Assembly (NCBI GenBank): GCA_020725175.1
Contig: DYFM01000001.1
Location: 1,504 to 65,503, forward strand
Length of the DNA: 64,000 bases
Direction of reading: 5' to 3'
DNA from: Candidatus Paceibacter sp.
Lineage (GTDB): Bacteria; Patescibacteriota; Patescibacteriia; Magasanikbacterales; UBA922
The notes below the pieces were generated by a model. That model was given only the letters and a program-made list of their open reading frames with translations. It searched no databases and was not told the origin of the DNA. Shown here piece after piece: positions 14,438 to 60,494 of the stretch. The position numbers were made by a program, and so were the translations under genes. Position 1 is the stretch's first letter. The number at the start of each line of letters is the position of its first letter.

Positions 14438-15013
14438 ATGAAAAGGAGGAACAGAAAACGTAATCGAAAAAACGGATTTGATTATGCGGTGGATGGTTTT
14501 TATTTTATTACCATTTGTGTGAAAGATCGGATGTAATGTTTAGGACGTATTCATAACGGTCGCATGTGCGTCAATCGATTTGGAACAATTGTTTGGTGGC
14601 AATGGAAATGGTTGGAACGTCAATATTCGTTTGTGCGATTACATGAATTTATCGTGATGCCGAATCATGTGCATGGGGTGGTGGAAATATGTCGTTCATC
14701 CGTTCGTCCGACCGTTGGAATGATAATCGATGCGACGTCAACCGTAGGGAGAGGTCTAGACCTGTCCCTACGGTTGGACGAACCGGCGGTTGAACAAAAA
14801 CCATTGTCATTGTCCAATATCATCGGCGCATTAAAAACCACATCATCAAAATTGATTCATGAACATGGTTTACCGTCATTTCGTTGGCAACGATCATTTT
14901 ACGATGTTATTATCCGTGATCCGCGTGCATTATATGGTATTCAACAGTATATTCGAGAGAATCCATTAAAATGGTGGCGAGATAGAAATAATGAAGAAGG
15001 TATATTTATCTAA
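14438..15013 (+). pseudogene. REP-associated tyrosine transposase (RAYT / IS200-like Y1 HUH transposase) interrupted by in-frame TAA at 14534-14536
   Basis: N-part MKRRNRKRNRKNGFDYAVDGFYFITICVKDRM* matches the RAYT N-terminus; downstream in the same frame ...FIVMPNHVHGVV (HUH) and RWQRSFYDVIIRD...YIRENPLKWW (catalytic Tyr region). A near-perfect 38-bp palindrome (14739-14776), nested in a ~90 bp dyad, is inserted in frame. Confidence 0.6.
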
Positions 15014-15074
15014 AATAAGCCAAAAATTATCCAAAAACTACATATTGCCAAACAGGACCGTTTTTGATATCATA

Positions 15075-15100
15075 ATTGCGTTATTTAACGCAATTTTTTT
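15075..15100 (+). terminator. Hairpin plus T-run between RAYT pseudogene and aspS
   Basis: attgcgttatttaacgcaat followed by ttttttt. Confidence 0.5.
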
Positions 15101-15102
15101 GT

Positions 15103-22287: not shown

Positions 22288-22464
22288 AGGACGGATTACG
22301 GATAATACGGAGGTACGTACGGATACTAAATTTGCAGAGTAAGCTCGTAAGCAGAATAGGCAGAGTAGGCACATACAGTACAATAGCGTATTCTACGTAC
22401 TCTGCTTTCTTGCATATTCTACTCAACACCACATCCGTACCTCCGTATTATTGTAATCCGTAAA
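22288..22464. repeat. ~175 bp dyad-symmetric intergenic repeat element, copy 1 (scpA/scpB spacer)
   Basis: Terminal inverted repeats ggattacggataatacggaggtacg / cgtacctccgtattattgtaatccgtaa; internal hairpin gcagagtaagctcgtaagcagaatag...tattct..tactctgc; near-identical copy at 60321-60494. Confidence 0.8.
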
Positions 22465-22487
22465 GTTATTCTCAACAGTACATCCAT

Positions 22488-24357: not shown

Positions 24358-24864
24358 ATGTTTCATTTGAATCCTCTCGATCTTGTTGGAAATATTCCGC
24401 CGGAGCTGGCAACGTTTTTATTGTCAATGTTGCCGATTGTTGAGTTGCGTGGATCACTTCCGTTGGCGTTAACTGTATTCCAGATGCCTATCTATACGGC
24501 ATATCTGTTGGCGGTGTTGGGAAATATTTTTCCGACCATTTTTATTTTATGGCTCATGCCATATTTGCATGATTGGATTATCAAACAACGGTTTGTTGGT
24601 AATTATTTGAAACGAAAATTGCAACATGCGGAAGTAAAGTTTTCCGGTAAATATTCCAAATATGGTTTAGTGGCGCTGGTTATTTTTGTTGCCATACCGC
24701 TTCCGATGACGGGGGCATGGACCGGATCTTTGGCAGCGTTTATCTTCAATATTCCTTTTAAGAAATCATTTCCAATGATTGCGCTCGGTGTTGCGATAGC
24801 GGGTGTATTGGTCACGTTGATTACACTTTTTGCCAAAGGAGCGTTGGGGTGGTTGTTGGGATAA
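24358..24864 (+). CDS. Small multi-pass membrane protein (resembles the COG2426 putative small multidrug export family)
   Basis: 168 aa, 4-5 TM helices; family assignment from memory of the motif pattern, not verified. Confidence 0.4.
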   Translation: MFHLNPLDLVGNIPPELATFLLSMLPIVELRGSLPLALTVFQMPIYTAYLLAVLGNIFPTIFILWLMPYLHDWIIKQRFVGNYLKRKLQHAEVKFSGKYSKYGLVALVIFVAIPLPMTGAWTGSLAAFIFNIPFKKSFPMIALGVAIAGVLVTLITLFAKGALGWLLG

Positions 24865-24971
24865 TGCATAAATCAAAAGTCGAACATAAAAAATCCTAAA
24901 TCACGGAACCTGAGTCATCTGAAAAAATGAAAAGGATTTATGATTTAGGATTTTTGATTTTAGATTTTGAT

Positions 24972-25940
24972 TTACTGTATTTCCAAGACAACAATCTCTG
25001 GTGGGTTAAATAATCTTGCTCTTACTCCTGATTCTCCAATACCGCTCGTAACAAAAACATGGAGATCTTCATATGTGTACCAGCCTTGGTACCAATTTTT
25101 GTTCGGAACATCTCCAATTCTACCAATAGGGCCAATGAAAGGGAGTCGTATTTGACCGCCGTGGGTGTGTCCGGATAGCATGAGGTCAATATCATGTTTG
25201 GCAACTTCTTGAGTGGCTGCCGGATTGTGGATGAGGGCAATGGTTGGGATGTTTTTGGTACGTTTTTCCAGTGAAGAAAAATCGAGTGTGCCGTTCCACC
25301 ATTCATCACCACCAAAAAGGTAGAATGATTCACCATTGACAGAAATCTCTTCAAGCTCATTGATGAGATACTGAACACCCAATTCTCGCATTACCTCGGC
25401 TGTGTGTTGGCTCCGGTCGGTAAATCGAAATGCCGGATTAGAAATTGATTTTCCACCTGGTATTCCGTACTCGTGATTTCCATGAACTGCGTAAGTGGGA
25501 ACTGTTGAAGCCAGTCGAGCGAGTGGAGTGAGGTAGATGGTTTCATCTTCCGTGGTATATGAATTATCAATGAGATCACCGATGATAAATACAATGTCTG
25601 GTTGTAGTGCAAGAATTCTGTCGACAGATTGGTCAACAAAGTCAGTTTTTTTGTATGGCCCAACCTGATAATCAGCTATCACTACTGCGCGAATAGGCTT
25701 GGAAATTTTTGGGAGATCAATTGTTTCAGGGTTAAGAACAATAATTCTCGGTTCGATAAAACTGCCATAGATGAGGGTGAGACTGGCAAGAGAAAAGAGA
25801 ATGGCAAACAGGCGGGAAAATGTTTTGTGCAATTCGTGCCAATTGGTTTTCTTTTTCCGCAGGTAGAATAAAACCACCGCCGGAAAAGCGGTGAGGATTA
25901 TTCCTAGCCAAATGACTATATCAAAGTGGAGAGGTGTCAT
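24972..25940 (-). CDS. Membrane-anchored calcineurin-like metallophosphoesterase
   Basis: N-terminal TM then ...AVVIADYQVGPY..., DIVFIIGDLID, GNHEY, GHTHGGQ metallophosphatase motifs; start set at ATG 25940 (MTPLHF...) because the longer ORF reads through the tRNA-Leu gene. Confidence 0.75.
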   Translation of the reverse strand: MTPLHFDIVIWLGIILTAFPAVVLFYLRKKKTNWHELHKTFSRLFAILFSLASLTLIYGSFIEPRIIVLNPETIDLPKISKPIRAVVIADYQVGPYKKTDFVDQSVDRILALQPDIVFIIGDLIDNSYTTEDETIYLTPLARLASTVPTYAVHGNHEYGIPGGKSISNPAFRFTDRSQHTAEVMRELGVQYLINELEEISVNGESFYLFGGDEWWNGTLDFSSLEKRTKNIPTIALIHNPAATQEVAKHDIDLMLSGHTHGGQIRLPFIGPIGRIGDVPNKNWYQGWYTYEDLHVFVTSGIGESGVRARLFNPPEIVVLEIQ

Positions 25941-26108: not shown

Positions 26109-26216
26109 GCTCTGAGTTAGCTGAGCTAGCTAAGTTTTCTGAGTGCTCTAAGTTTTCTAAGAGTAGACTCAGTCAACTCAGAACACTCAGAAAACTCAGA
26201 ACACTTAGTTAACTCA
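26109..26216. repeat. Dyad-symmetric array of 9-bp repeats (ctgagNNNN x6 / NNNNctcag x5) immediately upstream of parA
   Basis: ctgagttag ctgagctag ctaagtttt ctgagtgct ctaagtttt ctaagagta | gactcagt caactcag aacactcag aaaactcag aacacttag ttaactcag. Confidence 0.75.
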
Positions 26217-26221
26217 GCACC

Positions 26222-35705: not shown

Positions 35706-35770
35706 TTTTGGCAGTGTAGGCAGAATACGCAAAGTAAGTTTGTAAGCACCTTACGCGTATTCTGCCTACC
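35706..35770. repeat. Perfect 15-bp-arm hairpin (gtaggcagaatacgc...gcgtattctgcctac) related to the internal hairpin of the 175-bp repeat family
   Basis: Shares agtaagNtNgtaagca and gcagaata with copies at 22288/60321. Confidence 0.6.
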
Positions 35771-40808: not shown

Positions 40809-41160
40809 ATAGAAGAGTCGTTTCCGCCCGAGGCGGACCCGCCTTGGGCGGGCAATGGATAGGACATGGGTTTGCGGAACCCAAGATCTAAGTTCGATTC
40901 TTAGCAGGTGCACAGTGTATAGGTGTTGGTTTGTCGGGTCATCCGACCCGATCGGGTTGAATAACCCGACGGAACCCAAGATCTAAGTTCTCCTCCCGAG
41001 GCGGATCCGTCCTGGGCGGAGATTCTTAGCAGGTGCACAGTGTATAGGTGTTGGTTTGTCGGGTCATCCGACCCGATCGGGTTGAATAACCCGACGGAAC
41101 CCAAGATCTAAGTTCTCCTCCCGAGGCGGATCCGTCCTGGGCGGAGATTCTTAGCGAGAG
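40809..41160 (+). repeat. Composite tandem array: partial tRNA-Arg copies (D-loop-to-T-arm, then anticodon-stem-to-T-arm x2), each later unit split inside the T-loop by a 30-bp GC-rich palindrome, separated by an identical 65-bp palindromic spacer; ends with a duplicate of the tRNA 3' acceptor strand
   Basis: ggaacccaagatctaagttc...gattcttagc recurs at 40770, 40877, 40972, 41097; 125-bp unit 40906-41030 is repeated exactly at 41031-41155; palindromes ccgcccgaggcggacccgccttgggcggg (40824) and tcctcccgaggcggatccgtcctgggcgga (40989, 41114); final cttagcgagagcac repeats the tRNA 3' end. Confidence 0.8.
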
Positions 41161-60283: not shown

Positions 60284-60320
60284 AGGGAATAGTTGTTTTT
60301 ACTAATAGGTACTATGTATC

Positions 60321-60494
60321 TTACGGATTACGGATAATACGGAGGTACGGATAATTGTTTTGCAGAGTAAGCTAGTAAGCAGAATAGGCAGAGTAAGAGT
60401 ACAAAACACCATAGCTTATTCTGCTTACTCTGCGTACTTGCATATTCTGCCCGGTTCAACATCTGTATCTCCGTATTATCCGTAATCCGTAAAA
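60321..60494. repeat. ~175 bp dyad-symmetric intergenic repeat element, copy 2 (clpC-like/pgm divergent spacer)
   Basis: ttacggattacggataatacggaggtacgg ... gcagagtaagctagtaagcagaataggcagagta ... tattctgcttactctgc ... ctccgtattatccgtaatccgtaaa; matches 22288-22464. Confidence 0.8.

What the first reader, a model, noticed from the sequence alone, without database searches (positions are those of the whole stretch)
14438..15013. REP-associated tyrosine transposase (RAYT/IS200-like) gene with an in-frame TAA and its own palindromic insertion
One frame reads MKRRNRKRNRKNGFDYAVDGFYFITICVKDRM-TAA-CLGRIHNGRMCVNRFGTIV...VMPNHVHGVV...RWQRSFYDVIIRD...YIRENPLKWW. This gives the conserved RAYT N-terminus, the HUH motif and the Tyr motif, interrupted only by TAA at 14534-14536. 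A near-perfect 38-bp palindrome (14739-14776: aaccgtagggagaggtctagacctgtccctacggtt), nested in a larger ~90 bp dyad, sits in frame between the HUH and Tyr motifs. So the likely mobiliser of the palindromic elements is itself inactivated and colonised by a palindrome. This supports a domesticated or decaying REP-RAYT system.
Basis: partly seen in the sequence, partly recalled or inferred. Interest (0 to 1): 0.7.

Follow-up and report, generated by a model that had tools for sequence, protein, structure and literature searches.

The report
RAYT gene with built-in REP, stop-interrupted
This is a REP-associated tyrosine transposase (RAYT) gene of an already described subclass whose members normally carry their own palindromic REP sequence in frame inside the gene; the copy here is ordinary except that one TAA stop codon near its start has probably switched it off.

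Summary
Window 14438-15013 (+) reads as a 191-codon HUH/Y1 transposase-like gene. It has one in-frame TAA (14534-14536) and a 19+19 nt palindrome (14739-14776) between the HUH and Tyr motifs. The palindrome sits inside a ~100-nt dyad.

The palindrome is not a late colonisation of a decaying gene. About 70 of 80 homologues from many phyla carry the same GTAG...CTAC "double-foot" palindrome (consensus GTAGGGACAGGTCGCGACCTGTCCCTAC) at the same place. In all but three of these the reading frame is intact. Two reading frames are used, synonymous sites are fixed and arm changes are compensatory.

This feature is already published. Quentin et al. 2018 (BMC Genomics 19:475) describe it for TnpA_Y1 subclass 2.4 (Bertels group 4 RAYTs). 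Their Table S1 lists this same REP sequence.

The TAA is a single idiosyncratic nonsense mutation. TAA is the commonest stop codon in the window. A second assembly is identical over this stretch. Five of 80 homologues carry single stops, each at a different position. The gene matches 65 of 69 conserved columns, so inactivation is recent, or possibly only a variant within the population.

No flanking REP and no second RAYT copy occur in the 64 kb. Verdict: a new, probably just-inactivated member of a known kind, in a likely Magasanikbacteria (CPR) genome. Interest is low to moderate.

The parts
14438..15013 (+). tnpA_REP / RAYT reading frame (191 codons plus stop), TnpA_Y1 subclass 2.4 type, interrupted by one nonsense codon
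   Evidence: Translation. Pfam PF01797 above its gathering score. NCBIfam REP_Tyr_transpos E 2.6e-12. 345 homologues found. AlphaFold model with pTM 0.75 whose top 30 Foldseek PDB hits are all IS200/IS605 TnpA or TnpA_REP.
14534..14536 (+). In-frame TAA (codon 33), followed by T
   Evidence: Identical in a Logan assembly of SRR5011273. The position is variable in the family (C/E/K/H...). 31 of 80 homologues have a codon one substitution away from TAA: GAA, AAA, CAA, TCA or TAC.
14564..15013 (+). Residual ORF of 149 aa starting at the conserved Met43. It lacks predicted strand beta1 (residues 20-28).
   Evidence: ORF list. (secondary structure of the model). (M43 nearly invariant).
14666..14674 (+). 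HUH motif codons (His77-Val78-His79 within MPNHVHG)
   Evidence: Aligned to the HMH motif of 4ER8.
14739..14776 (.). In-frame double-foot REP. The 38-bp palindrome has the core GTAGGGAGAGGTCTAGACCTGTCCCTAC at 14744-14771. One arm mismatch (G at 14751 where the family has C) gives Arg instead of Thr.
   Evidence: Same sequence type as the subclass 2.4 REP GTAGGGACAGGTCGTGACCTGTCC in Table S1 of PMC6006769. The encoded residues fall in the pLDDT<50 segment 90-116.
14694..14796 (.). Larger dyad or branched fold enclosing the REP. It includes 14702-14718, which base-pairs with 14767-14783 and so resembles the palindrome's left arm.
   Evidence: pair I3. (fold, z about -6).
14885..14890 (+). Conserved Trp150-Gln151 (WQ motif). 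In E. coli TnpA_REP this region is implicated in recognising the GTAG guide sequence.
   Evidence: PMC6006769.
14948..14965 (+). Tyr motif YIRENP (putative catalytic Tyr171, Asn175)
   Evidence: Y171 and N175 are invariant in alignment A1. Aligned to YIYINP of 4ER8.
15074..15102 (+). Terminator-like hairpin with a T-run between the RAYT stop codon and the aspS start. A promoter-like site lies at 15045-15073.
   Evidence: (I14). These are consensus matches only.

Best explanation
The locus is a REP-associated tyrosine transposase gene (tnpA_REP/RAYT) of TnpA_Y1 subclass 2.4 (Bertels group 4). It lies in a probable Magasanikbacteria (CPR) genome between an rsmB/F-like methyltransferase gene and aspS. 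Intact members are small HUH/Y1 single-strand DNA endonucleases. By analogy with E. coli TnpA_REP, they bind a REP hairpin, read its 5' GTAG foot, and cut and rejoin DNA through a tyrosine (here Y171), with a metal held by the HUH histidines (H77, H79). Members of this subclass typically carry a copy of their own 'double-foot' REP (GTAG...CTAC palindrome) in frame, in the variable loop between strand beta3 (HUH) and helix alphaC. The 38-bp palindrome at 14739-14776 is that inherited hallmark, not a new insertion. Conservation acts on the DNA or RNA, not on the encoded peptide. The peptide is a disordered surface loop read in either of the two stop-free frames. What is particular to this copy is one nonsense substitution (TAA, codon 33). 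It stops translation before the beta-hairpin, HUH and Tyr motifs. Re-initiation at Met43 would give a protein lacking beta1. The copy is therefore most likely a recently inactivated pseudogene, with no cognate REPs around it. Shown here: identity, fold, motifs, family-wide REP position, DNA-level conservation, and the reality of the stop in two assemblies. Inferred: enzymatic mechanism (by homology), loss of function, and recency.
For: Family and fold: Pfam PF01797 scores 26.9 against a cut-off of 23. All 33 aligned members hit NCBIfam REP_Tyr_transpos. The only PDB sequence-profile hit is 4ER8, with HUH and WQ...YIxxNP aligned. The model has pTM 0.75, and 4ER8 gives the best superposition (TM 0.54/0.61, rmsd 3.4 A).

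Hallmark REP: 70 of 80 GTDB homologue loci have the palindrome between HUH and WQ. 56 are in the VGTGRDLSL frame, 14 in the RDRSRPVPT frame and 0 in the TAG-containing frame. 11 of 14 stem pairs show double compensatory changes, with 0 of 500 shuffles as high. REP codons are 100% fixed at synonymous sites in 33 of 33 copies, against a 38-54% top-codon share at 4-fold sites of the catalytic motifs. At least 17 loci also have matching REPs just outside the gene, of the same variant as the internal copy.

Literature: subclass 2.4 is defined by NH[IFV]H, WQ, YIxNNP, a variable beta3:alphaC insertion and a double-foot REP inserted in tnpA_REP. Table S1 lists GTAGGGACAGGTCGTGACCTGTCC.

Stop codon: TAA ends 25 of 43 long ORFs in the window. 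A second assembly is 100% identical. Stops in 5 other homologues lie at different positions. 65 of 69 conserved columns are retained. The insertion residues 90-116 have pLDDT below 50.
Against: The second assembly (Logan, SRR5011273) may derive from the same reads as the window. A population polymorphism or consensus error at 14534 is therefore not excluded. The gene is otherwise flawless, which also fits a functional gene. No flanking REPs were found, so the canonical REPtron arrangement is absent here. The NCBIfam equivalog cut-off is not reached (46.8 against 80). The Y motif reads YIRENP rather than the published YIxNNP. No activity data exist for any subclass 2.4 protein in what I read.
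Confidence: 0.85

Rival explanations
1. One reading: a decaying RAYT that was secondarily colonised by a mobile palindrome after, or as part of, its inactivation.
For: The gene carries a nonsense codon. The palindrome has one arm mismatch relative to the family consensus. REPs of this exact type do occur at many other genomic sites in metagenomes, so the element is or was mobile.
Against: The same palindrome sits at the same place in about 70 of 80 homologues across phyla; only three of these have an in-frame stop. It is a published subclass hallmark. Apart from the stop, the gene shows no decay: 65 of 69 conserved columns are kept.
Confidence: 0.04
2. The gene is functional. The TAA is a sequencing or consensus artefact or a minority allele, or it is bypassed by read-through, or the 32-aa and 149-aa products work as a split protein.
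For: All invariant residues are intact and there are no frameshifts. An ATG at the conserved Met43 follows the stop.
Against: Two assemblies agree base for base. TAA is the main stop codon here and is followed by T, a strong termination context by general knowledge. No homologue shares a stop at this site. The 149-aa product would lack beta1 of the central sheet.
Confidence: 0.1
3. It is the transposase of an autonomous IS200/IS605-type insertion sequence rather than a RAYT.
For: It belongs to the same Pfam family. The best Foldseek E-values are to ISDra2 and IS608 TnpA.
Against: NCBIfam transpos_IS200 gives only E 0.034 against 2.6e-12 for the RAYT model. The W and Y motifs are WQ and YIxxNP (RAYT-type, Asn rather than Gln after Tyr). 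There is a single copy in 64 kb. No subterminal left-end or right-end hairpins were found in the 701 bases scanned around the gene, and no tnpB-sized ORF adjoins it; the flanking ORFs are an rsmB/F-like methyltransferase and aspS.
Confidence: 0.01

Closest known systems
TnpA_Y1 subclass 2.4 (Quentin, Siguier, Chandler & Fichant 2018, BMC Genomics 19:475), equal to RAYT group 4 of Bertels et al. 2017
   Same: NHVH HuH motif and WQ motif. YIxxNP Tyr motif. Length 191 aa against a published median of 194. Variable insertion between beta3 and alphaC. Double-foot GT[AG]G...C[TC]AC REP inserted in frame between HuH and Y. The REP sequence is of the same type as their Table S1 entry GTAGGGACAGGTCGTGACCTGTCC.
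   Different: The host is a probable CPR/Patescibacteria genome; the paper stresses Cyanobacteria, Bacteroidetes and 'various phyla'. No flanking REPs are present. The Y motif is YIRENP rather than YIxNNP. This copy has a nonsense codon.
E. coli TnpA_REP (YafM; PDB 4ER8), subclass 2.2 / RAYT group 2
   Same: HUH/Y1 fold; 4ER8 is the best structural superposition and the only PDB sequence-profile hit. GTAG-footed REP hairpin as the presumed substrate. WQ...YIxxNP motif.
   Different: About 15% identity. E. coli REPs are bulged and single-footed, and they flank the gene rather than lie inside it. There is no beta3:alphaC insertion. The NCBIfam equivalog threshold is not met.
IS200/IS605 TnpA (IS608, ISDra2)
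   Same: Same fold and the same HUH plus Tyr chemistry.
   Different: These are autonomous multi-copy insertion sequences with subterminal hairpins outside the gene. Their Y motif is Y...Q. None of these features is seen here.
Intragenic REPs (Di Nocera et al. 2013, BMC Genomics 14:522)
   Same: GTAG-tagged palindromes tolerated in frame inside coding regions. The same 28-mer is found in frame in other long ORFs in metagenomes.
   Different: Here the host gene is the presumed cognate transposase itself, and the site is conserved across the family.

Membership tests
HUH/Y1 transposase superfamily (Pfam PF01797, Y1_Tnp) | Profile score above Pfam's gathering threshold | tested here: met
   26.9 bits against a cut-off of 23, E 5.6e-6. 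The match covers only the C-terminal half because the insertion splits the domain.
HUH/Y1 transposase superfamily (Pfam PF01797, Y1_Tnp) | His-hydrophobic-His motif and a downstream catalytic Tyr | tested here: met
   H77-V-H79 and Y171 are invariant in alignment A1. They align to the HMH and YIYINP motifs of 4ER8.
HUH/Y1 transposase superfamily (Pfam PF01797, Y1_Tnp) | IS200/TnpA_REP-type alpha/beta fold | tested here: met
   AlphaFold model with pTM 0.75. The top 30 Foldseek PDB hits are all IS200/IS605 TnpA or 4ER8, with E from 7e-6 to 1e-3.
HUH/Y1 transposase superfamily (Pfam PF01797, Y1_Tnp) | ssDNA hairpin binding and cleavage activity | not testable with these tools
   This needs biochemistry.
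RAYT / TnpA_REP (as opposed to IS200 TnpA) | RAYT-type motifs: conserved WQ, and Y-x3-N (YIxxNP) instead of Y-x3-Q | tested here: met
   W150-Q151 and Y171-I-R-E-N175-P. Criteria taken from PMC6006769.
RAYT / TnpA_REP (as opposed to IS200 TnpA) | Association with GTAG-footed REP hairpins | tested here: met
   An internal GTAG...CTAC palindrome is present. At least 17 of 80 homologue loci also have matching REPs next to the gene.
RAYT / TnpA_REP (as opposed to IS200 TnpA) | REPtron arrangement: REPs flanking the gene | tested here: not met
   No further copy of the palindrome exists in the 64-kb window at up to 3 mismatches. This holds for this copy only; many homologues meet the feature.
RAYT / TnpA_REP (as opposed to IS200 TnpA) | NCBIfam NF047646 equivalog cut-off (80 bits) | tested here: not met
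   46.8 bits. All 33 aligned members match the model, with a best E of 2e-19.
RAYT / TnpA_REP (as opposed to IS200 TnpA) | Single copy per genome | tested here: inconclusive
   There is no second copy in the 64 kb (tblastn). The rest of the genome was not available.
TnpA_Y1 subclass 2.4 (Quentin et al. 2018) | HuH = NH[IFV]H and W motif = WQ | tested here: met
   NHVH and WQ, against Table 1 of the paper.
TnpA_Y1 subclass 2.4 (Quentin et al. 2018) | Y motif YIxNNP | tested here: inconclusive
   The window has YIRENP, with E where the published consensus has N. Y, N and P are conserved in alignment A1.
TnpA_Y1 subclass 2.4 (Quentin et al. 2018) | Variable-length insertion between beta3 (HuH) and alphaC; enlarged HuH-Y distance (published median 88 aa) | tested here: met
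   The HuH-to-Y distance is 92-94 aa. Residues 90-116 have low confidence and sit between E77-84 and H125-142. Homologues vary widely in length here.
TnpA_Y1 subclass 2.4 (Quentin et al. 2018) | Double-foot REP (5' GT[AG]G ... C[TC]AC 3') inserted in frame within tnpA_REP | tested here: met
   GTAGGGAGAGGTCTAGACCTGTCCCTAC at 14744-14771, in frame. It matches the Table S1 REP type.
TnpA_Y1 subclass 2.4 (Quentin et al. 2018) | Placement in the authors' phylogeny or subclass HMM | not tested
   Their HMMs and tree are not available in these tools.
IS200/IS605 insertion sequence | Multi-copy unit with subterminal hairpins at both ends, often with tnpB | tested here: not met
   Single copy in the window. 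NCBIfam transpos_IS200 gives E 0.034. The genes either side are an rsmB/F-like methyltransferase and aspS, not tnpB.

The most novel reading that the evidence does not exclude
The in-gene REP may be a selected cis-acting DNA or RNA element rather than a tolerated passenger. Candidate roles are an autoregulatory hairpin, or the enzyme's own substrate kept inside the gene so that gene and site are inherited and transferred as one unit. Several results are compatible with this. The exact 28-mer is kept across phyla. Synonymous sites are 100% fixed. Arm changes are compensatory. Two frames are used. In most CPR loci, as here, it is the only copy within +/-6 kb. Half-site tandem arrays in some homologues would then record ongoing RAYT or hairpin activity at this site.
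Probability: 0.25. Interest if true: 0.55.

Novelty: new member of a known kind. Interest (0 to 1): 0.25.

Why it matters
For this window, very little: it is one probably dead copy of a described RAYT subclass. It should be annotated as a tnpA_REP (subclass 2.4) pseudogene, not as evidence of an unusual decay process. More broadly, the comparative data collected here sharpen a published but unexplained observation. The REP inside subclass 2.4 genes is conserved at the nucleotide level across phyla, including small CPR genomes. This makes the family a good system for asking what RAYTs and REPs do for each other.

Tried and rejected
(1) Recoding of TAA was rejected. TAA ends 25 of 43 long ORFs in the window, and no homologue has a stop at this codon.

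(2) A shared programmed stop or frameshift in the family was rejected. The five other disrupted homologues have stops at query positions 6, 22, 56, 137, 150 and 177.

(3) My first guess, from misreading the alignment columns, was Tyr (TAY) to TAA. It was corrected: the position is variable (C/E/K/H...), and GAA, AAA, CAA or TCA are equally possible ancestors.

(4) I looked for other copies of the internal REP or a second RAYT in the window and found none.

(5) I tested for a link between this RAYT and the window's other palindromic elements (22288-22465, 35716-35769, 60318-60492). There is no similarity beyond a GTA[AG]G foot, so no evidence of a relationship.

(6) A literature search for the exact DNA or peptide strings gave no relevant main-text hit. 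The sequence was found only in a supplementary table.

(7) A viral-contig scan found only 4 contigs with the 28-mer, so there is no sign of phage carriage.

(8) Synteny is only partial. aspS lies about 5 kb downstream of the RAYT in two related MAGs (L005, L006), not directly adjacent as here.

Full report
**1. Observation**

It has a single stop at codon 33, which is TAA at 14534-14536. The mechanical ORF list shows the two pieces: a 46-aa ORF ending at 14536 and a 149-aa ORF at 14564-15013.

The palindrome at 14739-14776 has 19-nt arms, 95% complementarity and no spacer. It is unique in the window at up to 3 mismatches, with 0 expected by chance.

Folding 14690-14800 as DNA or RNA gives a branched structure. 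An outer stem (about 14694-14712 with 14776-14796) encloses the palindrome hairpin. The z-score is about -6 and 0 of 200 shuffles fold as well. The "larger dyad" is therefore real.

**2. Identity of the protein**

- The read-through protein passes Pfam Y1_Tnp (26.9 bits against a gathering score of 23).
- It matches NCBIfam REP_Tyr_transpos at E 2.6e-12. That is below the equivalog cut-off (46.8 against 80 bits). The IS200 model gives only E 0.034.
- A profile of 33 family members hits one PDB sequence, E. coli TnpA_REP (4ER8). HUH aligns to HMH, and WQRSFYDHIIR...YIxxNP aligns to WQPRFWEHAIR...YIYINP.
- The catalytic Tyr is therefore most likely Y171 in YIRENP, not the Tyr of WQRSFYD.
- An AlphaFold model built from the alignment has pTM 0.75 and a confident core. 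Residues 90-116, the palindrome-encoded insertion, have pLDDT below 50.
- The top 30 Foldseek PDB matches are all IS200/IS605 TnpA or TnpA_REP. 4ER8 gives the best superposition (TM 0.54/0.61, rmsd 3.4 A).

**3. The palindrome is a family hallmark**

A database search found 345 homologues, mostly annotated Magasanikbacteria or Patescibacteria, at 40-56% identity. Their alignment shows "VGTGRDLSL" or "VGTGLDLSLQ" at the same place between HUH and WQ. Other members show "CRDRSRPVP" there, which is the same DNA read in another frame.

I fetched 80 loci from GTDB representative genomes. They come from Patescibacteria, Bacteroidota (Pontibacter, Flavobacterium, Rufibacter), Omnitrophota, Cloacimonadota, Spirochaetia, Desulfobacterota and others. 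Analysis of their DNA gave these results:

- 70 of 80 carry a perfect or near-perfect palindrome between the HUH and WQ motifs; only three of these have an in-frame stop. The consensus is GTAGGGACAGGTCGCGACCTGTCCCTAC.
- 56 are in the VGTGRDLSL frame and 14 in the RDRSRPVPT frame. None is in the third frame, which would read TAG.
- Variants keep the two-fold symmetry through paired changes. Examples are GGGAACGGTC/GACCGTTCCC, GGGACAACCC/GGGTTGTCCC, GGGTCAGGTC/GACCTGACCC and GTACCCGCAGGTC/GACCTGCGGGTAC.
- On 71 aligned cores, 11 of 14 pairs show changes on both sides. The covariation score is 0.30 against 0.11 in shuffles, with 0 of 500 shuffles as high. Slid controls collapse to about 37% paired. 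One caveat: the cores were picked as hairpins, so the paired fraction is inflated.
- In 33 of 33 copies encoding VGTG[RL]DLSL, the first eight codons are identical (GTA GGG ACA GGT CGC GAC CTG TCC). Four-fold sites in the HUH, KTTSSK and WQRSF motifs of the same genes show only a 38-54% top-codon share. Conservation is therefore on the nucleic acid, not the peptide.
- At least 17 loci have further copies just outside the gene. These copies are of the same variant as the internal one, for example L014, L030, L054, L061 and L077.

**4. This is already published**

Quentin, Siguier, Chandler and Fichant (BMC Genomics 2018, 19:475; PMC6006769) define TnpA_Y1 subclass 2.4, which corresponds to Bertels group 4. 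Its features are:

- HuH motif NH[IFV]H, W motif WQ and Y motif YIxNNP.
- Median length 194 aa.
- A highly variable insertion between beta3 and alphaC.
- "Double foot" REPs (5' GT[AG]G ... C[TC]AC 3').

They state that "a unique feature of subclass 2.4" is that REP sequences are inserted within the tnpA_REP genes, between HuH and Y, without disrupting the frame. Their Table S1 lists GTAGGGACAGGTCGTGACCTGTCC as the REP of the subclass 2.4 gene ADQ78812.1.

Bertels et al. 2017 (PMC5581495) describe group 4 as rare in Proteobacteria and scattered over 17 bacterial classes.

The window gene fits on NHVH, WQ, YIRENP, 191 aa, the insertion and the double-foot REP.

**5. The stop codon**

- TAA is the commonest stop of long ORFs in the window (25 of 43). 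It also ends the upstream rsmB-like gene. It is not reassigned.
- A Logan assembly of SRR5011273 (L001) is 100% identical over 721 bases, including the TAA. It may derive from the same reads.
- Among the 80 homologue loci, five (L012, L019, L024, L035, L079) have single or double in-frame stops. All are at different positions. There is no conserved recoding site.
- Codon 33 is a variable position. 31 of 80 homologues have a codon one substitution away from TAA.
- The window protein matches the consensus at 65 of 69 columns that are at least 80% conserved. The four differences are conservative.
- The arm mismatch in the palindrome (G at 14751 where the family has C) is the only other departure.

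Translation from 14438 would end after 32 residues. Re-initiation at the conserved Met43 would give a product lacking strand beta1 (residues 20-28). The most likely reading is a recent nonsense inactivation. A polymorphism or consensus error remains possible.

**6. Context**

- No second RAYT copy exists in the window, and no flanking REP.
- The window's AspRS is 74% identical to that of a Magasanikiibacteriota MAG (L005) and 65% identical to L006. In both, aspS lies about 5 kb downstream of their RAYT. This supports a Magasanikbacteria-like host, with only loose synteny.
- Most CPR-labelled homologue loci likewise show only the internal REP within +/-6 kb.
Of 127 sites, 20 were inside RAYT-like genes, 6 were next to one, 78 were elsewhere and 23 were at contig ends. 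About two-thirds look intergenic and some lie in frame in other long ORFs. The sequence therefore is, or was, a dispersed REP in many organisms.
- Only 4 viral contigs carry the 28-mer.

**7. Mechanism**

Intact members are inferred to act like E. coli TnpA_REP. They would bind the REP hairpin in single-stranded DNA, read the GTAG foot, and cleave and rejoin through Tyr with HUH-bound metal. This rests on homology, not on a test.

Why the REP is kept inside the gene is unknown. Quentin et al. suggest a tolerated insertion in a peripheral loop. My data (fixed synonymous sites, compensatory changes, two frames) show continuing constraint or homogenisation at the DNA or RNA level. That is compatible with a cis role, but also with repeated RAYT-mediated conversion.

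In this window the enzyme is most likely not made.

**8. Verdict**

This is a new, probably freshly inactivated member of a known kind, RAYT subclass 2.4 with its hallmark in-gene double-foot REP. Interest is low to moderate.

Noticed in passing
window 22288-22465, 60318-60492 and 35716-35769: This is a separate small family of intergenic nested palindromic (MITE/REPIN-like) elements. Two ~175-bp copies have outer inverted repeats (ACGGATTACGGATAATACGGAG...) and inner arms GTAAGCAGAATAGGC. A third, core-only hairpin reads GTAGGCAGAATACGC / 24 nt / GCGTATTCTGCCTAC. The 15-mer gives 9 matches against 0.64 expected. The family is unrelated in sequence to the RAYT-internal REP, apart from a GTA[AG]G foot.
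   Followed up: partly
window 40880-41140: A ~125-bp tandem duplication. Each unit contains the palindrome GTCGGGTCATCCGACCCGATCGGGTTGAATAACCCGAC.
   Followed up: no
window 26112-26217 and 24852-24992: Two long imperfect inverted repeats: 50-nt arms at 76% complementarity built of CTGAG/CTAAG-type short repeats, and 52-nt arms at 71%.
   Followed up: no
L006 6313-6433, L007 4371-4464, L029 5701-5776, L035 5787-5907, L051 6284-6326: Homologues carry tandem arrays of REP half-sites (periods 15-54 nt) inside or next to the gene. These produce repeated peptides such as VGTGRDAAS and account for the length variability of the beta3:alphaC insertion.
   Followed up: partly
L054, L058, L072, L076, L079 (and protein P0107): Flavobacterium-type homologues have a second in-gene REP site near the N-terminus, between beta1 and the next element, in addition to or instead of the HUH-Y site.
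   Followed up: no
L150 2370, L083 3987, L103 279 and 573, L187 5966, L170 796: The exact 28-bp REP lies in frame inside long non-RAYT ORFs in metagenome contigs. For example, L150 has 564 and 402 stop-free codons on either side. The host genes were not identified.
   Followed up: no
L012, L019, L024, L035, L079: Five of 80 representative-genome homologues are interrupted by one or two nonsense codons but are otherwise well conserved. This is the same pattern as in the window, so single-hit inactivation seems recurrent in this family.
   Followed up: partly
window 15045-15102: A promoter-like site (TTGCCA, 17-nt spacer, TATCAT) is directly followed by a hairpin plus T-run (15074-15102) that abuts the aspS start codon. 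This could be a terminator for the RAYT gene or a leader structure for aspS.
   Followed up: no
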